Of a stretch of 64,000 nucleotides of DNA, positions 15,123-35,249 are shown in pieces. Every line of letters starts with the position of its first letter. The first letter of the stretch is position 1. The DNA is from Prochlorococcus sp. AG-409-G20. Lineage in GTDB: Bacteria; Cyanobacteriota; Cyanobacteriia; PCC-6307; Cyanobiaceae. The DNA is taken from assembly GCA_003215775.1 (NCBI GenBank), contig QCJW01000008.1, forward strand, positions 2,833 through 66,832, in the 5' to 3' direction. A program made the translations under genes and the position numbers. The notes under the pieces are model-generated. The model did not search any database. It had not been told where the DNA came from and saw nothing but the letters and a program-made list of their open reading frames with translations.

Positions 15123-15495
15123 AGCCCAAAGAAGCCTAAAGAACTTTCAACATCCATAATCACCTTATAAGAAAGAGCTCCAATATCAGAGATCTACCAA
15201 GAACGATAAATCACCCTATTGACTCATTCTATTCAGTTAAAAGGCCAAAGATAGTCATTAAGCTGACCTTACCGAAAGTTGAATTAAGACTAAATTTATA
15301 TTATTCAAACCATATCAGTAACTACTTGCCTTCATGAAAAGCATTGTCAATGCTTAAAGGATAAGAAACAAACCAAATTGATGTCTTGCAGCTCTCTAAA
15401 CTACAATTGTCCATAATTGAACTCCTCAAGGAGTTGTTGTTGCAGAAAAGCAACACACTTCAAGAGACCGAAGCAATGTTTTCAGTGTCGCAGCT

Positions 15496-18400
15496 ATGAG
15501 CCTGCTGCACGCCACTTGGCTTCCAGCCATTCGCACCCCTACCTCTTCTGGTCGCCCTGCTTTATTGCTATGGGCAGATACATGGCGAGTCGCAACCCCA
15601 ACAGGTCCAAAAGATACACCAGCAAGCCATCCATTTACACTCAACCAAGAAGATCTAAGAAAATGGCTCATTGCAAAAGATCTTTTACCTCAAGAAACTG
15701 TCACTGCGACAGCTTGCTTAACTTTACCTAGCAAAGAGATAAGACTAGACAGCAGATCTGCTCAAACAGTAAAAGATAACAACAATTCAACTGAATATGC
15801 TTGGACAGGCTTGCCTTTACAAGCAGGAGAACCAACACCAAAACACTGTGAATGGTGGCCTTGGCAAGTCGAAGGATTAGCAATAGAACCTGGTGAAGCA
15901 ACAAATTGGTTATCTAAACTTCCGTTATCTGAGCAAAATCAAGACCTTGGCAATGAACTTCTATGGTGGAGTCATCTTCAACGTTGGGCATTAAGCCTCA
16001 TTGCACGTGGACGATGGCTACCACAAGTTGAACTAAGCAAAGGAGAAGGCTACCCACACCGAGCCAGATGGCTTCCTCTACTCAATCGTGAAGATGATCG
16101 ACGCAGGTTAGAAGAATTCGCAAGCAAACTTCCACTAATCGCAACCTGTGCTTTGCCTTGGAGAGAGCCAATAGGAAGCAAAGCAAATCGTTCGCTCCGC
16201 ATGAGACCAGAAGCAATGAGAGCTGCTAATCCTGTGGCATCATGCAGACCTAGGAGTGGGCTACTTCGAGTCGCAACACTACTTGCAGATCTCGTAGATG
16301 CACAGCTAAGAAAAAACTTCAATCCAACTACTCAAAAGCTGGATCCATTGTTGACTGCTTGGCAGGAAGGACTCAGTTCACAAACTGGACTCATTACTCT
16401 TCCTAATAACGACGTTGAACGCCTTGCAAAAGCAAGTAATCACTGGAGAGAAGGAGTTGCAGGGAATGTTGCAGCAGCAAAAGCTTGCCTTGAATTATTT
16501 ATACCTGAAAAAGATGAAGAGCACTGGAATCTAGGTTTTAAATTACAGGCAGAAGCAGATCCAACACTCCAAATACCTGCTTCATCTGTGTGGGCAGCCG
16601 GGACAAAGACTCTTCAACTTGGCGAAATCCGAGTAGACAAGCCTGCCGAAATTCTATTAGAAGGAATGGGTCGAGCACTTGCAATATTTCAACCACTTGA
16701 AAGAGGACTGGAAGGTGCAACTCCAGAATTGATGCAACTAACACCTAACGAGGCATTTGTTTTAATCCGTACTGCTGCAGCTCAGCTCCGTAATATTGGC
16801 ATTGGTGTGATATTGCCACCAAGTCTTTCAGGAGGATTAGCTAGTCGTCTAGGCCTCTCAATAAAAGCAGAGTTATCAGACACATCTATAGGATTTGCAC
16901 TTGGTGAAAGTCTTACTTGGTCTTGGGAACTCATGATTGGAGGCATAACATTATCTCTGAAAGAACTAAAGCTTCTAACAGGCAAACAAAGCCCTTTAGT
17001 CCAATACAACGGTGAATGGCTTGAATTAAGACCTAACGATCTAAAGAATGCAGAGCGTTTCTGCAGTTCCAATTCAACGATCAGCTTAGATGATGCTCTG
17101 AGACTTACTGCAACAGAAGGCAATACATTCATGAAGCTTCCTGTTCATAACTTTGAAGCAGGCCCAAGACTTCAAAATGTTTTACAGCAATATCACAAAC
17201 TCAAAGTCCCAGATCCTTTACCTGCCCCACCAGGATTTATTGGACAATTAAGACCATATCAAGAAAAAGGCTTAGGATGGCTCGCCTTCTTGCATCGGTT
17301 TGATCAAGGTGCATGCTTAGCTGATGACATGGGATTAGGCAAAACAATCCAACTCCTTGCATTCCTTCAATACCTCAAAGCAGAACAAGAACTCAAAAGA
17401 CCAGTATTACTAATTGCGCCAACATCGGTATTAACTAATTGGAAGAGAGAAGCACTAACATTCACACCTGAATTAAATGTCTACGAGCACTATGGTCCTA
17501 AACGATCTTCCACCATATCTGATCTCAAGAAAAACATTAAAGAAGCCAATCTAGTTTTAACTAGTTATGGACTAATACAGCGAGATCTTGAAATCCTAAA
17601 CAATATTGACTGGCAAGGAATAGTGATTGATGAAGCACAAGCAATTAAAAACTCATATGCAAAGCAAAGCCAGGCAACTCGTCAACTAGCGAAATCATGG
17701 AAACATAAACGATTCAAAATAGCCCTCACTGGAACACCAATAGAAAATCGAGTAAGTGAGATCTGGGCACTTATGAACTTTCTGAATCCTAATGTTCTTG
17801 GAGAAGAAGACTTCTTTCGTCAAAGATATCGATTACCAATAGAACAATATGGAGATAATGCTTCCTTTAAAGATCTTAAGTCAAGAGTCAATCCATTCAT
17901 ATTAAGAAGATTAAAAACTGATAAGACAATAATCTCTGACCTGCCAGAAAAGATTGAACTAAGTGAATGGGTAGGTCTGAGTAAAGAACAACAATCACTT
18001 TATAAAAAAACTGTAGAAGAAAGCTTAGATGCAATAGCAACTAAATCATCTAGTCAACAACAAGGACAAGTTCTTGCTCTTTTAACCAGATTAAAACAAA
18101 TCTGTAATCATCCAGCCCTAGCACTCAAAGAAAAAACCTTAACCAATGAATTTATAAAGCGTTCGGCCAAACTAGAGCGACTCAATGAAATTCTCGAAGA
18201 AATTATAGAAAGTGGGGATAGAGCATTACTTTTCACACAATTTACAGAATGGGGTCATCTACTAAAAAGTTATTTGCAAAATAAATGGAAAACGGAAGTG
18301 CCTTTTTTACATGGAAGCACTAAAAAACAAGAGCGCCAGGCAATGATTGATCGATTTCAAGAAGACCCTCGCGGGCCTCATTTGTTCTTACTATCACTCA

Positions 18401-18693
18401 AAGCTGGCGGCGTAGGACTCAACCTCACTCGTGCTAGTCACGTATTTCATATAGATCGATGGTGGAATCCCGCAGTAGAAAATCAGGCGACAGATCGTGC
18501 CTACAGAATTGGACAAACAAAAAGAGTGATGGTTCACAAATTTATTACTAGCGGATCTGTTGAAGAAAAAATCGACAAAATGATTAGAGACAAGGCGCGA
18601 CTAGCAGAAGACATAATTGGTTCAGGAGAAAATTGGTTGACAAGCCTAGGGGTAGATCAGCTGCGTGAACTTGTGACCTTAGAAGAAAATTAA
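15496..18693 (+). CDS. SNF2-family ATPase/helicase with a long (about 570 aa) N-terminal accessory region
   Basis: 1065 aa. Motifs seen: LADDMGLGKT (motif I), VIDEAQAIKN (DEAQ box), LTGTPIENR, and LSLKAGGVGLNLT...DRWWNPAVENQATDRAYRIGQ (motifs V-VI). Confidence 0.9.
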   Translation: MSLLHATWLPAIRTPTSSGRPALLLWADTWRVATPTGPKDTPASHPFTLNQEDLRKWLIAKDLLPQETVTATACLTLPSKEIRLDSRSAQTVKDNNNSTEYAWTGLPLQAGEPTPKHCEWWPWQVEGLAIEPGEATNWLSKLPLSEQNQDLGNELLWWSHLQRWALSLIARGRWLPQVELSKGEGYPHRARWLPLLNREDDRRRLEEFASKLPLIATCALPWREPIGSKANRSLRMRPEAMRAANPVASCRPRSGLLRVATLLADLVDAQLRKNFNPTTQKLDPLLTAWQEGLSSQTGLITLPNNDVERLAKASNHWREGVAGNVAAAKACLELFIPEKDEEHWNLGFKLQAEADPTLQIPASSVWAAGTKTLQLGEIRVDKPAEILLEGMGRALAIFQPLERGLEGATPELMQLTPNEAFVLIRTAAAQLRNIGIGVILPPSLSGGLASRLGLSIKAELSDTSIGFALGESLTWSWELMIGGITLSLKELKLLTGKQSPLVQYNGEWLELRPNDLKNAERFCSSNSTISLDDALRLTATEGNTFMKLPVHNFEAGPRLQNVLQQYHKLKVPDPLPAPPGFIGQLRPYQEKGLGWLAFLHRFDQGACLADDMGLGKTIQLLAFLQYLKAEQELKRPVLLIAPTSVLTNWKREALTFTPELNVYEHYGPKRSSTISDLKKNIKEANLVLTSYGLIQRDLEILNNIDWQGIVIDEAQAIKNSYAKQSQATRQLAKSWKHKRFKIALTGTPIENRVSEIWALMNFLNPNVLGEEDFFRQRYRLPIEQYGDNASFKDLKSRVNPFILRRLKTDKTIISDLPEKIELSEWVGLSKEQQSLYKKTVEESLDAIATKSSSQQQGQVLALLTRLKQICNHPALALKEKTLTNEFIKRSAKLERLNEILEEIIESGDRALLFTQFTEWGHLLKSYLQNKWKTEVPFLHGSTKKQERQAMIDRFQEDPRGPHLFLLSLKAGGVGLNLTRASHVFHIDRWWNPAVENQATDRAYRIGQTKRVMVHKFITSGSVEEKIDKMIRDKARLAEDIIGSGENWLTSLGVDQLRELVTLEEN

Positions 18694-18706
18694 TTAGAAT
18701 TTAGTT

Positions 18707-19606
18707 GTGAGAAATACTCCTCTAACCAATTCCAGCATTACCACTGCTCTGAGTGAGCAAGGGCTAAACGCACAACCATGGTGGGTTGAGCAATGGATGG
18801 AATTAATTAATTCCTATCGATTTAAAAAACGTTTAGAAAGGGCTTGGAGTTATGCAAAAGAAGGAAATGTTATATCGATTACTTTTGAAGGGCGTCGAGT
18901 TCATGCGCGTGTTCAAGGCACTGAAGAAGAGCCTTACAAAGTGAAGATTTGGCTAGATGTACTTAACGATGAAGACTGGGGATATGTGTTTGAAGCTCTT
19001 ACACAAAAAGCAAAATGGTCAGCTCAATTACTAGCTGGAATTATGCCAGCAGATATCGAAAGAGCATTTGCGGCGAGTGGAAAAAGATTATTCCCATTCA
19101 CATTACAAGAAGTACGTAGTGAATGCAGTTGCCCAGATAAGGCCAATCCATGCAAACATATAAGTGCAATTTATTACCTTTTTGGAGATCGGTTTAGTGA
19201 AGATCCTTTTGTACTTTTTCAACTGAGAGGTAGAAATAGAACTCAATTACTATCCGACTTAGCAGATCAACGGCAAAAATTAATCGTCAGTCTTACGAAA
19301 GAACAAATGAAAAATAAAGCAATGATACAAAAATCGAGTATGCCAGACGAGACCCCTATCCCTATTCATCCTGCATTTACCAAGCCAAGCTTATGGTGGA
19401 GTTATGACTCTGTTCTTAGCTCTGATTTAGTAGTCATTACGCCTTCGTTAGAAGAAGATACAGGATTAAATACAGCAGGTGAACTACCTTTAGCAGAAGA
19501 CCCTAGATTTTCAAAGGCCCGCCAAAACTTTATGAATCACTTACATGAGCAAGGACAAAAATTTTCCCAACAAGCAATGCTCCAAGCCATGGCAACAGAT
19601 GAATGA
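18707..19606 (+). CDS. SWIM zinc-finger protein
   Basis: 299 aa. CSCPDKANPCKH matches the CxCxnCxH SWIM signature. GTG start 14 nt after the SNF2 stop. Confidence 0.8.
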   Translation: MRNTPLTNSSITTALSEQGLNAQPWWVEQWMELINSYRFKKRLERAWSYAKEGNVISITFEGRRVHARVQGTEEEPYKVKIWLDVLNDEDWGYVFEALTQKAKWSAQLLAGIMPADIERAFAASGKRLFPFTLQEVRSECSCPDKANPCKHISAIYYLFGDRFSEDPFVLFQLRGRNRTQLLSDLADQRQKLIVSLTKEQMKNKAMIQKSSMPDETPIPIHPAFTKPSLWWSYDSVLSSDLVVITPSLEEDTGLNTAGELPLAEDPRFSKARQNFMNHLHEQGQKFSQQAMLQAMATDE

Positions 19607-20075
19607 CCCTCCATGGTTGCATCAAGATAAGCGGGAGTTAGTCAAATTAATTTTCTTATCGCATCAAAAAGCATTCAAATATGAATTAATGAAATGTCAA
19701 AATATCAGCGACTCATATAGACATAAAAGCCAAGAATTATTTTTTTTAGATTCACCAGTTCTTGCTCATAGCAATACAAAAGATCCTCTCATAACCTATG
19801 CAAATGCAAAGGCACTGCAACTCTGGGGTCGGCAATGGAAGATCATGGTAGGAATGCCATCAAGATTGACAGCACCAAAAGATCAACAAGATAAACGCCA
19901 AGCTACTCTCCATCTAGCAAACCAAAAAAATGGAATTAATGGTTTGCAAGGTATCAGAGTAAATCAAAATGGACGCAAATTTAAAATCTCGAATATAAGA
20001 CTATGGACATTATGGGACGAAGATGAACATCCAATTGGACAAGCCGCAACCTTCTCTGACTGGTGGTTTCTCTAA
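19599..20075 (+). CDS. MEKHLA (PAS-like) domain protein
   Basis: DPLITYANAKALQLWGRQW...MPSRLTAP...GIRVNQNGRKFKISNIRLWTLWDE...GQAATFSDWW fits my recollection of cyanobacterial MEKHLA proteins. The ATG at 19599 overlaps the SWIM stop by 8 nt. An alternative ATG lies at 19545. Confidence 0.6.
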   Translation: MNDPPWLHQDKRELVKLIFLSHQKAFKYELMKCQNISDSYRHKSQELFFLDSPVLAHSNTKDPLITYANAKALQLWGRQWKIMVGMPSRLTAPKDQQDKRQATLHLANQKNGINGLQGIRVNQNGRKFKISNIRLWTLWDEDEHPIGQAATFSDWWFL

Positions 20076-20201: not shown

Positions 20202-21311
20202 ATGCAACGTCGCAAGTTACTCAAAACAAGCGCAACAACACTTTCGGGAGTAATTGGTGCAAGCATGCTTAATGCCTGCACCATTCGGAAAGAAGAGAAT
20301 GTGCGTATGAATAATTTGCCAAAAATACGATGGCGTATGGCAACCAGCTGGCCTATATCACTAGATACAATCTATGGAGGAGCAGAAACCATAAGTCAAA
20401 GAGTTAATACTCTTAGTGGTGGGAACTTCCAAATCAAACCATATGCTGCTGGCGAATTAGTACCTGGATTGGAAGTGCTCGATTCAGTGCAATCAGGATC
20501 AATAGAATGTGGTCATACAGCAAGCTACTACTACATAGGCAAAAATCCTGCATTTGCTTTTGGAACTTCAGTTCCTTTTGGCTTAACGGCACAACAGCAA
20601 AATGCTTGGCTATACGAAGACAACGGATTAAGAGCTCTAAACAAACTTTATGCAGACTTTGGAGTTATTAGTTTTCCTGCAGGTAATACAGGAGCCCAAA
20701 TGGGAGGTTGGTTCAAACAAAAGCTTGACGGCTTGAAATCTCTACAAGGTCTAAAAATGCGAATTCCAGGGCTTGGAGGAAAAGTAATGGCCCAACTTGG
20801 AGTAAATGTTCAAGTATTACCTGGTGGAGAAATTTATCTTGCTCTAGATCGTGGTGCAATTGATGCAGCTGAGTGGACAGGCCCTTATGACGATGAAAAA
20901 CTCGGTTTATTTAGAGCAGCAAAATATTATTACTATCCAGGCTGGTGGGAGCCAGGTCCAACTCTTACTGCTCTAGTCAATAAAAAAGCATGGCAAAAAT
21001 TACCAACTGAATATCAAGCTATTTTTAAAACAGCCTGCTATGAAGCAAACCTGTCAATGCTGAGTCGTTATGACAATCTGAATGGTGCTGCACTTCAACG
21101 ACTCATTCAAAAAGGAACTCAACTAATCCAATACGAAGACACAATCCTCAAGGCGGCTGAAGAGGCTTCTTTTGAACTGTTGGAAGAAATAGGAGAAAAA
21201 GACATCGGTTTCAACGAAATCTTTACTCAATGGAAAAAATTCCGTCAAAACGTCTCATCTTGGAACAAAATCAATGAATTCTCCTTCTCACGCTTTAGAT
21301 ATCAGGCATGA
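20202..21311 (+). CDS. dctP: TRAP transporter substrate-binding protein (DctP family) with a Tat-like signal and lipobox
   Basis: 369 aa. N-terminus MQRRKLLKTSATTLSGVIGASMLNAC. The mature part (WRMATSWPISLDTIYGG...GELVPGLEVLDSVQSGSIECGHT) is typical of family-7 solute-binding proteins. Confidence 0.85.
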   Translation: MQRRKLLKTSATTLSGVIGASMLNACTIRKEENVRMNNLPKIRWRMATSWPISLDTIYGGAETISQRVNTLSGGNFQIKPYAAGELVPGLEVLDSVQSGSIECGHTASYYYIGKNPAFAFGTSVPFGLTAQQQNAWLYEDNGLRALNKLYADFGVISFPAGNTGAQMGGWFKQKLDGLKSLQGLKMRIPGLGGKVMAQLGVNVQVLPGGEIYLALDRGAIDAAEWTGPYDDEKLGLFRAAKYYYYPGWWEPGPTLTALVNKKAWQKLPTEYQAIFKTACYEANLSMLSRYDNLNGAALQRLIQKGTQLIQYEDTILKAAEEASFELLEEIGEKDIGFNEIFTQWKKFRQNVSSWNKINEFSFSRFRYQA

Positions 21312-21859
21312 AAAAATTTCTTGCAATTGCGAGCAAATTAGACAAGGTAAATAAAATTGCAGGCATTATTGGAAAGTGGTCAATATTACTAATGCTTGGC
21401 TTGGGACTATGGAATGTAATCGGCAGATATCTAGGTGTTGCATTGAAATATAACCTTAGTTCCAATGGACTCATTGAAAGTCAGTGGTATCTATTTGATT
21501 TAGCTTTCCTTCTCGGACTAGGGTGGACACTACAACGGCAAAATCATGTTCGAGTAGATGTACTACAAGGCAGATGGGGAGCTAAACGAAAAGCAAAAAT
21601 AGAACTATTGGGAACCTTGCTATTACTTTTACCATTTTCTTTGGGGGTAATGGCTATCTCAATCGAGCCAGCAATACATTCATGGAATATCCTAGAGGCA
21701 TCACCTGACCCTAATGGACTTCCTCGCTATTTAATCAAAAGCCTTATTCCATTGGGATTTTTTCTGCTGTCCTTACAAGGAATTGCCGAGGCAATTCGTA
21801 GCCTATCAATATTAAAAAAATCAAATACTAAACTTTTGGAGCAAGATTCAAGTGATTGA
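21308..21859 (+). CDS. dctQ: TRAP transporter small permease
   Basis: 183 aa with four hydrophobic segments. ATGA overlap with the binding-protein stop. Confidence 0.8.
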   Translation: MKKFLAIASKLDKVNKIAGIIGKWSILLMLGLGLWNVIGRYLGVALKYNLSSNGLIESQWYLFDLAFLLGLGWTLQRQNHVRVDVLQGRWGAKRKAKIELLGTLLLLLPFSLGVMAISIEPAIHSWNILEASPDPNGLPRYLIKSLIPLGFFLLSLQGIAEAIRSLSILKKSNTKLLEQDSSD

Positions 21860-23222
21860 AATACAACTACTTGGATACGTCATAACTATTGATCCAACAA
21901 ATTTTCTAGGACCAGGTATGTTCCTAGCTTTAATCACAGTGCTTCTAAGTGGCTATCCAGTAGCTTTTTGCTTAGGAGGAATTGCAGTGATCTTTTCATT
22001 GCTAGGCATGATATTTGGAGAAATCGATCCCATATTTGTTTCTGCTCTTCCTCAAAGAATTTTGGGGATCATGGGTAACTTCACATTATTAGCTATTCCA
22101 GCCTTTATTTTCATGGGGGCAATGTTGGAGGCCTCAGGTATTGCCGAGCGACTTCTTGAAAGCATGGGTCAACTTCTTGGGAAAATAAGAGGTGGACTTG
22201 CATTATCTGTAGTTATAGTCGGTTCTCTTCTTGCAGCAACAACTGGTGTAGTAGCAGCCACTGTGACCACCATGGGATTAATTTCACTGCCAGCAATGTT
22301 ACGTGCTGGATACAATCGATCCCTTGCCACAGGTGTAATTGCAGCCTCAGGCACACTGGGTCAAATCATCCCGCCAAGCATTGTCCTTGTCGTGCTTGGG
22401 GATCAACTTGGTATTTCTGTAGGAGATCTATTTCTTGGATCTCTAATTCCTGGAATCCTTATGGCAACTACTTTTGCGTTATATATACTTGTCATCACTA
22501 CTATTAAACCTGAATTAGCACCTAAACAAAATAATATTACTTTGGCTCCAATACAACTAATTCAATTAATAAGAATAATACTTCCGCCACTTGGTCTGAT
22601 TTTTCTAGTACTTGGGAGTATCTTTTTTGGTATTGCCACACCTACTGAAGCAGGAACACTCGGCGCTATTGGAGCTATATGCCTTGCTGCATTAAATCGT
22701 GAATTTAATCGAAAAACCCTTTCAAAAGTATGCGATGAGACATTACGAACAACATCTATGGTCATAGCAATCCTCCTAGGCTCTACTGCATTTAGCCTAG
22801 TTTTTAGAGGTATTGGTGGAGATGAATTAATTGGACAAATCTTACTCAATCTTCCTGGAGGAAAAATTGGATTCATGGCATTTAGTATGCTCACAATATT
22901 TATTTTAGGGTTTTTCATAGACTTCTTTGAAATTGCTTTCATTGCAGTTCCACTACTTCTTCCATCAGCCCGACAATTACTGGGACCCGATGCACTCCTA
23001 TGGCTTGGTGTTGTAATTGGAGCAAATCTGCAAACATCATTTTTAACTCCTCCTTTTGGCTTTGCTCTGTTTTATTTAAGAGGCGTAGCCCCAAAGTCAA
23101 TTAAAACAAAAGAAATTTATGCTGGTGCACTTCCTTTTGTAGGATTACAAATATGTGTTTTAGTATTAATTATCCTTATGCCAGGATTAGTAAATTGGCT
23201 TCCAAGAATGTCTTGGTCATGA
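21852..23222 (+). CDS. dctM: TRAP transporter large permease
   Basis: 456-aa polytopic membrane protein. GTG start overlaps the dctQ stop by 8 nt. Confidence 0.9.
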   Translation: MIEIQLLGYVITIDPTNFLGPGMFLALITVLLSGYPVAFCLGGIAVIFSLLGMIFGEIDPIFVSALPQRILGIMGNFTLLAIPAFIFMGAMLEASGIAERLLESMGQLLGKIRGGLALSVVIVGSLLAATTGVVAATVTTMGLISLPAMLRAGYNRSLATGVIAASGTLGQIIPPSIVLVVLGDQLGISVGDLFLGSLIPGILMATTFALYILVITTIKPELAPKQNNITLAPIQLIQLIRIILPPLGLIFLVLGSIFFGIATPTEAGTLGAIGAICLAALNREFNRKTLSKVCDETLRTTSMVIAILLGSTAFSLVFRGIGGDELIGQILLNLPGGKIGFMAFSMLTIFILGFFIDFFEIAFIAVPLLLPSARQLLGPDALLWLGVVIGANLQTSFLTPPFGFALFYLRGVAPKSIKTKEIYAGALPFVGLQICVLVLIILMPGLVNWLPRMSWS

Positions 23223-35177: not shown

Positions 35178-35249
35178 GCGGGTGTAATTCAGAGGTAGAA
35201 TGTCAGCTTCCCAAGCTGAACGTCGCCGGTTCGAATCCGGTCACCCGCT
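35178..35249 (+). tRNA. tRNA-Gly (anticodon CCC)
   Basis: Folded by hand: acceptor GCGGGTG/CACCCGC, D-arm ATTC/GAAT, anticodon stem TCAGC/GCTGA with loop TTCCCAA, T-arm GCCGG/CCGGT with loop TTCGAAT. 72 nt. CCA is not encoded. Confidence 0.95.

What the first reader, a model, noticed from the sequence alone, without database searches (positions are those of the whole stretch)
15496..20075. SNF2 ATPase, SWIM zinc finger and MEKHLA (PAS-like) protein packed as one translationally coupled module
Seen in sequence: a 1065-aa SNF2 ATPase with a roughly 570-aa non-ATPase N-terminus is followed 14 nt later by a protein carrying a clean CxCxnCxH SWIM finger. The stop of that SWIM gene overlaps by 8 nt the ATG (19599) of a roughly 158-aa protein that looks like a stand-alone MEKHLA domain. 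Established knowledge: the SWIM-SNF2 association was noted when SWIM was defined, and MEKHLA was defined as a PAS-like domain shared by plant HD-ZIP III proteins and cyanobacteria. To my knowledge neither bacterial protein has a demonstrated function. Inference: a sensor-type domain coupled to a DNA/RNA translocase and a zinc-finger adaptor suggests a signal-gated nucleic-acid remodelling or repair module. This is the best candidate in the window for an uncharacterised system.
Basis: partly seen in the sequence, partly recalled or inferred. Interest (0 to 1): 0.7.

Follow-up and report, generated by a model that had tools for sequence, protein, structure and literature searches.

The report
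SNF2–SWIM helicase pair with MEKHLA
A widespread but poorly understood bacterial DNA-motor protein and its zinc-finger partner are followed, in picocyanobacteria only, by a small PAS-like "sensor-type" gene whose start overlaps the partner's stop; the arrangement is real and conserved in that group, but the third gene is missing in some close relatives and unlinked everywhere else, so a signal-gated machine is plausible, not shown.

Summary
The three ORFs exist as described. They are a 1065-aa DUF3670 + SNF2 + Helicase_C ATPase (15496-18693), a 299-aa SWIM protein with CxCx6CxH (18707-19606), and a 158-aa stand-alone MEKHLA protein (19599-20075) whose ATG overlaps the SWIM stop by 8 nt.

The helicase→SWIM pair is the old, widespread unit. 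The same order recurs on Pseudanabaena, Streptomyces and Halococcus plasmids, always without MEKHLA.

The MEKHLA link is confined to picocyanobacteria (Prochlorococcus, Synechococcus, Cyanobium, Vulcanococcus):
- SWIM lies directly upstream of MEKHLA in 78 of 78 MEKHLA-anchored loci.
- MEKHLA lies directly downstream of SWIM in 63 of 67 assessable SWIM-anchored metagenomic loci, with start and stop nearly always overlapping or a few nt apart.

Four facts weaken a functional reading:
- The whole block alaS | SNF2 | SWIM-MEKHLA | flavodiiron genes is syntenic in this clade.
- MEKHLA is cleanly absent in some low-GC Prochlorococcus.
- Full-length SWIM orthologs in six other cyanobacterial lineages sit next to neither SNF2 nor MEKHLA.
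- MEKHLA elsewhere is stand-alone or fused to unrelated enzymes.

Verdict: this is a housekeeping Snf2-SWIM translocase pair, closest to sll1366/SCO1167 and probably like the RNAP-associated YwqA, with a clade-specific, co-translated, dispensable PAS-like accessory. Interest is moderate.

The parts
15123..15495 (.). Divergent intergenic region between alaS (-) and the SNF2 gene (+). It holds a weak sigma-70-like site at 15378-15407 (+).
   Evidence: Promoter-like matches in the region are no more frequent than in shuffles, so this is only a candidate promoter.
15496..18693 (+). Swi2/Snf2-family ATPase, 1065 aa, of the sll1366 / SCO1167 type, with a long N-terminal non-motor region.
   Evidence: Pfam DUF3670, SNF2-rel_dom and Helicase_C. 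The best NCBIfam hits are helic_SCO1167 (625 bits) and helic_sll1366 (472 bits), both below their equivalog cutoffs. The best PDB hit is the SsoRad54 core 1z63, E 4e-130. Walker A DDMGLGKT, the DEAQ box and QATDRAYRIGQ are present in the translation.
16720..17109 (+). DUF3670 domain (aa 409-538) within the N-terminal region of the SNF2 protein.
   Evidence: 105.4 bits against a cutoff of 27.6.
17257..18513 (+). ATPase motor: SNF2-related domain (aa 588-874) plus Helicase_C (aa 893-1006).
18707..19606 (+). SWIM zinc-finger protein, 299 aa, GTG start. It has a very conserved N-terminal ~190 aa, a variable linker and a conserved C-terminal ~85 aa.
   Evidence: Pfam SWIM. It is 69-75% identical across Prochlorococcus and Synechococcus and 38-45% identical over its full length to orthologs in other cyanobacteria. 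It has no PDB relative.
19124..19159 (+). SWIM motif C140-x-C142-x6-C149-x-H151 (CSCPDKANPCKH).
   Evidence: All four ligands are invariant in alignments A4 and A5.
19599..19606 (+). 8-nt overlap ATGAATGA between the MEKHLA start codon and the SWIM stop codon.
   Evidence: Equivalent junctions (overlaps of 1-17 nt or gaps of about 2-14 nt) occur in most of the 78 related loci examined.
19599..20075 (+). Stand-alone MEKHLA (PAS-like) protein, 158 aa.
   Evidence: Pfam MEKHLA, 134.8 bits. The AF2 model has pLDDT 91.2 and a PAS fold. Twenty-three columns are invariant, including H57, D62, Y67, N69, S88, R89, R100, R120 and Q148.

Best explanation
The core is a housekeeping two-protein machine: a Swi2/Snf2 double-strand-DNA translocase with a DUF3670-containing N-terminal region, and a SWIM zinc-finger partner.

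I infer that the SWIM protein binds the helicase, and either the nucleic acid or the protein obstacle, and so directs the motor. The most likely job is to push or strip stalled protein-DNA complexes, above all RNA polymerase, off DNA during transcription stress, replication-transcription conflicts or repair.

In the ancestor of picocyanobacteria a stand-alone MEKHLA (PAS-fold) gene came to lie directly behind the SWIM gene. Since then it has been transcribed with SWIM and translated by coupling to it. I infer that it acts as an optional small-ligand-binding modulator of the SWIM subunit, not as an essential part.

Shown here: domain identities, gene order, junction conservation, clade restriction, and loss in some lineages.
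Inferred: complex formation, the RNAP or DNA target, and any sensing.
For: The motor is intact: Pfam SNF2-rel_dom and Helicase_C, and the ATPase motifs. Homology to the SsoRad54 core is E 4e-130.

The helicase→SWIM order, with 4-nt overlaps or about 115-nt spacing, recurs in distant lineages. These are the Pseudanabaena plasmid L085, the Streptomyces plasmid L086 and the archaeal Halococcus plasmid L087. In them the helicases are 37-39% identical to this one over 720-940 aa, and the SWIM N-terminal domains 31-38%.

The locus has a core-genome position next to alaS throughout picocyanobacteria. The SWIM protein is under very strong purifying selection: 69-75% identity, with most of aa 20-190 invariant.

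Literature: B. subtilis YwqA, a Swi2/Snf2 protein, co-purifies with RNAP and PcrA and is thought to backtrack RNAP (PMC7385302, PMC10804225, PMC3797733). Synechocystis sll1366 sediments with large complexes (PMC8136920).

MEKHLA coupling:
- SWIM is directly upstream in 78 of 78 MEKHLA-anchored picocyanobacterial loci.
- MEKHLA is directly downstream in 63 of 67 assessable SWIM-anchored metagenomic loci.
- Start and stop overlap or lie within a few nt in most loci, and none has a gene inserted there, although both flanking junctions accept inserts.

The MEKHLA model is a confident PAS fold with a set of invariant polar residues, as expected for a ligand pocket.
Against: No experiment or interaction prediction links the three proteins. 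The AF2 model of the SWIM protein failed (pLDDT 45), and no multimer tool was available.

That YwqA and YwqB belong to this same DUF3670/SWIM family is from memory and was not tested here.

NCBIfam equivalog cutoffs for sll1366 and SCO1167 are not reached, and RapA scores only 41 bits against a cutoff of 576.

Full-length SWIM orthologs in six other cyanobacterial lineages are not next to any SNF2 gene. The pair is therefore not obligately co-encoded.

The MEKHLA link can be explained by synteny alone. Unrelated alaS and flavodiiron genes are conserved neighbours too. Overlapping starts are common in this compact genome, about 6 of 28 same-strand pairs, and include an apparently unrelated QueG/TPR pair.

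MEKHLA is lost in some Prochlorococcus while SNF2-SWIM stays intact.
Confidence: 0.55

Rival explanations
1. MEKHLA is a passenger. It sits in an old, compact, syntenic block and is co-transcribed with SWIM, but it works on something unrelated, such as a metabolic or redox target. The overlap reflects genome streamlining, not partnership.
For: - The block alaS | SNF2 | SWIM-MEKHLA | flv is syntenic across the clade although alaS and flv are functionally unrelated.
- Overlaps of 1-8 nt are frequent in the window and include a QueG/TPR pair.
- MEKHLA is deleted without loss of SNF2-SWIM in L097, L100, L124, L143 and L149.
- The SWIM C-terminal domain stays conserved in lineages without an adjacent MEKHLA.
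- In other bacteria MEKHLA is stand-alone beside metH, enolase/cupin or a histidine kinase.
- Elsewhere it is fused to very different enzymes: an RlmL-like methyltransferase, PEP mutase, CHAD, a DCC1-like oxidoreductase, GNAT, GGACT and others.
Against: Inserts have repeatedly entered both neighbouring junctions (SNF2|SWIM and MEKHLA|flv) but never SWIM|MEKHLA in about 140 loci. The junction is kept tight in every sub-clade despite changes of frame and start codon. In the window, the overlapping pairs of known function are mostly true partners, dctPQM and the two flavodiiron proteins.
Confidence: 0.3
2. SWIM and MEKHLA form a two-protein unit that acts independently of the helicase. The SNF2 gene is merely an upstream neighbour in this clade.
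For: SWIM-MEKHLA is the only invariant junction. SNF2 is separated from SWIM by 0.1-8.7 kb of unrelated genes in many Cyanobium loci and is not within 9-10 kb in several, for example L014, L067 and L074. Full-length SWIM orthologs of other cyanobacteria stand without SNF2.
Against: Helicase→SWIM adjacency with 4-nt overlaps recurs independently in an actinobacterium and an archaeon, and with about 115-nt spacing on a cyanobacterial plasmid. In the SWIM-anchored sample SNF2 is directly upstream in 61 of 73 assessable loci. SWIM persists with SNF2 where MEKHLA is lost.
Confidence: 0.1
3. The locus is an anti-phage defence system built around an SNF2 helicase, of the Zorya ZorD, DISARM DrmD or Dpd DpdE kind.
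For: PADLOC and NCBIfam models for ZorD, DpdE and DrmD hit the helicase.
Against: The hits cover essentially the generic motor: most start at aa 563-607, and one ZorD model starts at aa 497. They lie far below the curated cutoffs, for example ZorD 291 against 1500 bits. SWIM and MEKHLA have no meaningful PADLOC hit. No ZorABC, Drm or Dpd partner genes flank it. The locus is in a fixed core-genome position beside alaS in the whole clade and is not in a variable island.
Confidence: 0.03

Closest known systems
sll1366-family and SCO1167/SCO6262-family helicases (NCBIfam NF058636, NF058637)
   Same: They are the best-scoring curated families. NF058636 aligns over the whole N-terminal region (aa 1-616), and NF058637 over aa 142-1062. 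They share the DUF3670 + SNF2 + Helicase_C architecture.
   Different: Scores of 472 and 625 bits fall below the equivalog cutoffs of 550 and 1200. No intein is present here. No function is known for either family. sll1366 is only known to sediment with large complexes (PMC8136920).
Bacillus subtilis YwqA (with neighbouring SWIM protein YwqB)
   Same: It is a Swi2/Snf2 ATPase that is poorly characterised. It co-purifies with RNA polymerase and PcrA and is proposed to backtrack RNAP. From memory, ywqB next to it encodes a SWIM protein, which would be the same two-gene unit.
   Different: Family identity with this protein was not tested here because no Bacillus sequence was available. There is no MEKHLA gene in that locus, to my knowledge.
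E. coli RapA/HepA
   Same: It is a bacterial Swi2/Snf2 ATPase that acts on RNA polymerase. It is the functional analogy behind the proposed mechanism.
   Different: The RapA model scores only 41 bits against a cutoff of 576, and only over the motor. The N-terminal region is unrelated, and RapA has no SWIM partner.
Sulfolobus solfataricus Rad54-like Snf2 core (PDB 1z63)
   Same: It is the closest solved structure, E 4e-130 over aa 578-1062. It is a dsDNA translocase, not a strand-separating helicase.
   Different: It covers only the motor. There is no equivalent of the 570-aa N-terminus or of the SWIM partner.
MEKHLA domain of plant HD-ZIP III transcription factors, and stand-alone bacterial MEKHLA proteins (Pfam PF08670)
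   Same: The match is clear, at 134.8 bits. The protein has a PAS-like fold and keeps the invariant residues shared with non-cyanobacterial members.
   Different: Here it is a separate 158-aa protein coupled to a SWIM gene. It is more divergent than other bacterial members, which score 157-194 bits. No ligand is known for any MEKHLA.
LOV and FAD-binding PAS domains
   Same: They are the best structural matches of the AF2 model: Brucella LOV-HK 6ph2, NifL 2gj3 and Aer 8dik, with TM 0.5-0.64 normalised to the query. A weak profile alignment puts S88-R89 on the LOV Cys-Arg.
   Different: Sequence identity is 11-21%, and the hhalign probability is only 4%. The photoactive Cys is Ser. Flavin binding is untested.

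Membership tests
Swi2/Snf2 ATPases (SF2) | SNF2-related N-lobe plus Helicase_C lobe, with intact Walker A, DExx and motif VI. | tested here: met
   231.9 and 78.5 bits. DDMGLGKT, DEAQ and QATDRAYRIGQ are present in the translation. PDB 1z63, E 4e-130.
DUF3670-type bacterial/archaeal Snf2 helicases (sll1366 / SCO1167 families) | A DUF3670 domain N-terminal to the motor. | tested here: met
   PF12419, 105.4 bits against a cutoff of 27.6, aa 409-538.
DUF3670-type bacterial/archaeal Snf2 helicases (sll1366 / SCO1167 families) | A score above the NCBIfam equivalog cutoff. | tested here: not met
   NF058637 scores 625 against 1200, and NF058636 scores 472 against 550. These are the best hits but are sub-threshold, so this is a close relative and not a certified equivalog.
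DUF3670-type bacterial/archaeal Snf2 helicases (sll1366 / SCO1167 families) | A SWIM-protein gene immediately downstream. | tested here: met
   Window, 13 nt downstream. The same order occurs in L085, L086 and L087 and in 61 of 73 assessable metagenomic loci.
SWIM zinc finger (PF04434) | A CxCxnCxH zinc-ligand signature that passes the Pfam cutoff. | tested here: met
   23.4 bits against 19.6. C140, C142, C149 and H151 are invariant.
MEKHLA (PF08670) | A full-length match to the Pfam model. | tested here: met
   134.8 bits against 23.7, covering model positions 2-143 of 143.
MEKHLA (PF08670) | A PAS-like alpha/beta fold. | tested here: met
   AF2 model with pLDDT 91.2 and pTM 0.86. 468 PDB matches at E<=1e-3, and the listed top matches are all PAS/LOV-type domains or chimeras that contain one.
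RapA/HepA | RapA-specific N-terminal RNAP-binding domains, with a score above the equivalog cutoff. | tested here: not met
   41 bits against 576, matching the motor only (aa 601-768).
RapA/HepA | Binding to RNA polymerase. | not testable with these tools
   This is only an analogy through YwqA.
Zorya / DISARM / Dpd defence helicases | Partner genes (ZorABC; DrmABC/E/MI/MII; DpdA-K) in the locus, and a score above the cutoff. | tested here: not met
   ZorD 291 against 1500, DrmD 110 against 950, DpdE 53 against 500. No partner genes are among the neighbours. There are no meaningful PADLOC hits for SWIM or MEKHLA.
LOV photosensors | A flavin-binding NCRFLQ motif with the photoactive Cys. | tested here: inconclusive
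   A weak hhalign alignment (probability 4%) puts MPSRLTA on RNCRFLQ, with Ser in place of Cys. The structural similarity is generic to PAS domains.

The most novel reading that the evidence does not exclude
In picocyanobacteria the MEKHLA protein is a true ligand, redox or flavin sensor. It docks on the SWIM subunit and switches a Snf2 motor that acts on RNA polymerase or DNA. That would make it a small-molecule-gated bacterial 'remodeller' and the first functional context for any MEKHLA domain, and so a lead for what the MEKHLA domain of plant HD-ZIP III factors senses.
Probability: 0.2. Interest if true: 0.65.

Novelty: new variant of a known kind. Interest (0 to 1): 0.4.

Why it matters
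The Snf2-SWIM pair has been recognised by comparative genomics for two decades and occurs in bacteria and archaea, yet it still has no established function. Picocyanobacteria keep it in a core-genome position with an extremely conserved SWIM subunit, so it probably matters for the most abundant phototrophs in the ocean.

MEKHLA has no known ligand or partner in any organism. A conserved, translationally coupled SWIM-MEKHLA junction is the first concrete, testable hint of a partner.

The limits found here keep expectations moderate: the link is restricted to one clade, MEKHLA is dispensable, and the whole block is syntenic. They also show which experiments would discriminate between the readings.

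Tried and rejected
1. An AF2 model of the SWIM protein from 35 close homologs failed (pLDDT 45), so no fold search was run on it.
2. Sequence and profile searches of the PDB found no relative of the SWIM protein or of MEKHLA.
3. A Rosetta-stone test found no support. Among the 150 best MEKHLA representatives, the 10 multidomain ones scanned are fused to unrelated enzymes, never to SWIM or SNF2.
4. Programmed frameshift or read-through fusion of SWIM and MEKHLA is rejected. The relative frame varies (0, +1, +2) among loci, and a stop always intervenes.
5. The 534-541-aa protein that follows SWIM in other cyanobacteria is not a detached helicase N-terminus. It shows no similarity to aa 1-570 and looks like a polytopic membrane protein.
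6. The defence-system reading is rejected.
7. Promoter and terminator scans gave nothing above shuffles. There is no + strand terminator inside the cluster.
8. There is no Rfam element in the locus.
9. Literature searches for MEKHLA in bacteria and for sll1366 gave almost nothing functional. The original MEKHLA paper is not held.
The scan that ran keeps only the 80 best of 366 relatives, so non-picocyanobacterial MEKHLA loci are under-sampled (5 examined).


Full report
**Observation**

- ORF1 (15496-18693, 1065 aa) has Pfam DUF3670 (aa 409-538), SNF2-rel_dom (588-874) and Helicase_C (893-1006). About 570-590 residues therefore precede the motor. Walker A (DDMGLGKT), DEAQ and motif VI are intact.
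- ORF2 (18707-19606, GTG, 299 aa) starts 13 nt after ORF1's stop. It passes the Pfam SWIM cutoff (23.4 against 19.6 bits) and carries CSCPDKANPCKH. The four ligands are invariant in every homolog aligned.
- ORF3 is open from 19545. The ATG at 19599 gives the 158-aa protein that matches the length and N-terminus of homologs and of the identical database entry.
- ATGAATGA makes an 8-nt overlap between ORF3's start and the SWIM stop.
- ORF3 hits MEKHLA at 134.8 bits. An AlphaFold2 model (pLDDT 91.2) has a PAS fold, and its best PDB matches are LOV and FAD-PAS domains.

**The helicase-SWIM pair**

The best curated families for ORF1 are the SCO1167/SCO6262 helicases and the 'sll1366 family intein-prone helicase'. 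The sll1366 N-terminal model aligns over aa 1-616. Both are sub-threshold, at 625 against 1200 and 472 against 550 bits. RapA, ZorD, DrmD and DpdE models match only the generic motor and fall far below their cutoffs. The closest solved structure is the Sulfolobus Rad54-like Snf2 core (1z63, E 4e-130).

A tblastn search of plasmid records with the SWIM protein found the same two-gene order, a helicase of about 980-1060 aa and then SWIM. It occurs in Pseudanabaena (116-nt spacer), Streptomyces (4-nt overlap) and the archaeon Halococcus (4-nt overlap). The helicases are 37-39% identical to ORF1 over 720-940 residues, and the SWIM N-terminal ~190 aa 31-38% identical. None has a MEKHLA gene. This repeated, independent adjacency is the main evidence that helicase and SWIM work together.

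**The MEKHLA link inside picocyanobacteria**

A scan of one genome per species with a MEKHLA alignment found 366 relatives, and the 80 best were kept. With the two picocyanobacterial loci fetched earlier, that gives 78 loci from Cyanobium, Synechococcus, Vulcanococcus and Prochlorococcus. SWIM is immediately upstream on the same strand in all 78. In most of them the MEKHLA start overlaps the SWIM stop by 1-17 nt or follows within about 2-14 nt. The relative reading frame and start codon vary among loci, which excludes a frameshift fusion.

A metagenome scan anchored on SWIM, and so unbiased for MEKHLA, gave MEKHLA directly downstream in 63 of 67 assessable loci. SNF2 was directly upstream in 61 of 73.

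**Limits of the link**

1. The SNF2|SWIM junction is an insertion hotspot in Cyanobium-type genomes. It holds a HEPN/MNT toxin-antitoxin pair in 11 loci, and elsewhere a CHASE4-EAL gene plus MarR, an epimerase, two CsgG genes, a ceramidase or a fatty-acid desaturase. Gaps reach 8.7 kb, and in several loci no SNF2 lies within 9-10 kb.
2. The whole block alaS(-) | SNF2 | SWIM-MEKHLA | (dctPQM, HSP20 or nothing) | flavodiiron genes is syntenic across the clade. Adjacency alone is therefore weak evidence.
3. MEKHLA is cleanly absent in some low-GC Prochlorococcus. In these, alaS-SNF2-SWIM is followed after about 160 nt by the flavodiiron gene, or by dctP. Examples are L097, L100, L124, L143 and L149. 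The SNF2 and SWIM proteins remain 68-73% identical to the window's.
4. Full-length SWIM orthologs, 41-45% identical over nearly all 299 aa, were examined in Acaryochloris, Egbenema, Thermosynechococcaceae and three further cyanobacterial contigs. None has SNF2 or MEKHLA within the sequence available, up to 7 kb each side. For the Thermosynechococcaceae contigs only about 360 nt of upstream sequence is available.
5. The five MEKHLA genes outside picocyanobacteria come from Planctomycetes, two Verrucomicrobia, Acaryochloris marina and a Rhodobacteraceae-labelled contig. They are stand-alone and lie beside unrelated genes.
6. An exhaustive profile search found 1726 MEKHLA representatives. The 10 multidomain ones scanned among the best 150 are fused to unrelated enzymes (an RlmL-like methyltransferase, PEP mutase, CHAD, PRA isomerase, a biotin/lipoate ligase, a PRK-like kinase, a DCC1-like oxidoreductase, GNAT and GGACT), never to SWIM or SNF2.
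7. Short overlaps are common in this compact genome, in about 6 of 28 same-strand neighbour pairs. Most join true partners (dctPQM and the two flavodiiron proteins), but one joins QueG to a TPR protein.

**Mechanism**

The most likely reading is a housekeeping Snf2 dsDNA translocase whose SWIM partner targets it.

By analogy it would act on stalled RNA polymerase or other protein-DNA obstacles. B. subtilis YwqA co-purifies with RNAP and PcrA and is thought to backtrack RNAP. Synechocystis sll1366 sediments in large complexes. That YwqA/YwqB is the same family is my recollection and was not tested here.

MEKHLA is best seen as a clade-specific accessory that is co-transcribed with SWIM, translated by coupling to it, and dispensable. 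Its PAS fold and its invariant polar residues (H57, D62, Y67, N69, S88, R89, R100, R120, Q148) suggest a ligand pocket. A weak alignment places S88-R89 on the LOV Cys-Arg, which is only a lead. Whether MEKHLA touches SWIM or SNF2 is open. I give the functional link roughly even-to-lower odds against the passenger model.

**Comparison and novelty**

The helicase-SWIM unit is a known, uncharacterised kind. A MEKHLA gene conserved at that junction across picocyanobacteria appears to be unreported in the literature I could search. That makes this a new variant of a known kind, of moderate interest.

The defence-system reading is rejected. No structured RNA, tRNA or terminator lies within the locus.

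Noticed in passing
L011 8267-9048; also L008, L023, L024, L030, L048, L055, L059, L061, L069, L076 (between SNF2 and SWIM): In 11 Cyanobium-type loci a HEPN (NTase_sub_bind) plus MNT (Polbeta) toxin-antitoxin pair is inserted exactly between the SNF2 and SWIM genes. Other loci carry CHASE4-EAL+MarR, CsgG x2, an epimerase, a ceramidase or a FA desaturase at the same junction, which makes it an insertion hotspot.
   Followed up: partly
L089 7928-9532; L091 1242-2867; L096 7825-9429: In Acaryochloris, Thermosynechococcaceae and another cyanobacterial contig, the SWIM ortholog is followed at 0-8 nt by a conserved 534-541-aa polytopic membrane protein. It is 72% identical between two of these lineages and has no Pfam or NCBIfam match. 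It may be an alternative coupled partner of SWIM.
   Followed up: partly
P0290, P0300, P0331, P0346, P0347, P0386, P0397, P0325, P0417 (MEKHLA representatives): MEKHLA occurs fused to a strikingly varied set of enzymes: THUMP-RlmL methyltransferase, PEP mutase/ICL, CHAD, a DCC1-like thiol oxidoreductase, PRA isomerase, a biotin/lipoate ligase, a PRK-like kinase, GNAT and GGACT. This suggests a generic regulatory or ligand-binding module. Some of these may be gene-calling artefacts.
   Followed up: partly
L007, L060, L077: MAG contigs labelled Asaia bogorensis, Mesorhizobium carmichaelinearum and Bradyrhizobium ivorense carry typical Cyanobium-type SNF2/SWIM-MEKHLA-flv loci (64-68% protein identity to the window). 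The taxonomic labels look wrong.
   Followed up: no
window 20202-23222: A TRAP transporter operon dctPQM, with 4- and 8-nt overlaps, lies between MEKHLA and the flavodiiron genes here and in a few Prochlorococcus loci (L003, L004, L018, L102). It is absent at that position in most other picocyanobacteria, so this is a second variable junction.
   Followed up: partly
window 19860-19880 (MEKHLA aa 86-92, MPSRLTA): The invariant S88-R89 aligns weakly (hhalign probability 4%) with the Cys-Arg of the LOV flavin-binding motif NCRFLQ. The best structural matches of the AF2 model are LOV and FAD-PAS domains. This hints at, but does not show, an anionic or flavin-like ligand.
   Followed up: partly
L005, L021, L031, L033, L036: In five loci SWIM and MEKHLA are in the same reading frame. 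In four of them a GTG codon opens the MEKHLA frame directly after the SWIM stop, and in L005 a GTG also follows the stop but lies about 60 nt upstream of the aligned MEKHLA start. These are one mutation away from a SWIM-MEKHLA fusion, yet no such fusion was seen among the multidomain MEKHLA representatives scanned.
   Followed up: partly
window 35178-35249: tRNA-Gly (CCC), the only Rfam/ARAGORN hit in the 64-kb window.
   Followed up: no
L122: A higher-GC (0.58) Synechococcus-like metagenomic contig has SNF2-SWIM but no detectable MEKHLA in the 901 nt downstream. It was the only non-Prochlorococcus-like loss seen and was not examined further.
   Followed up: no
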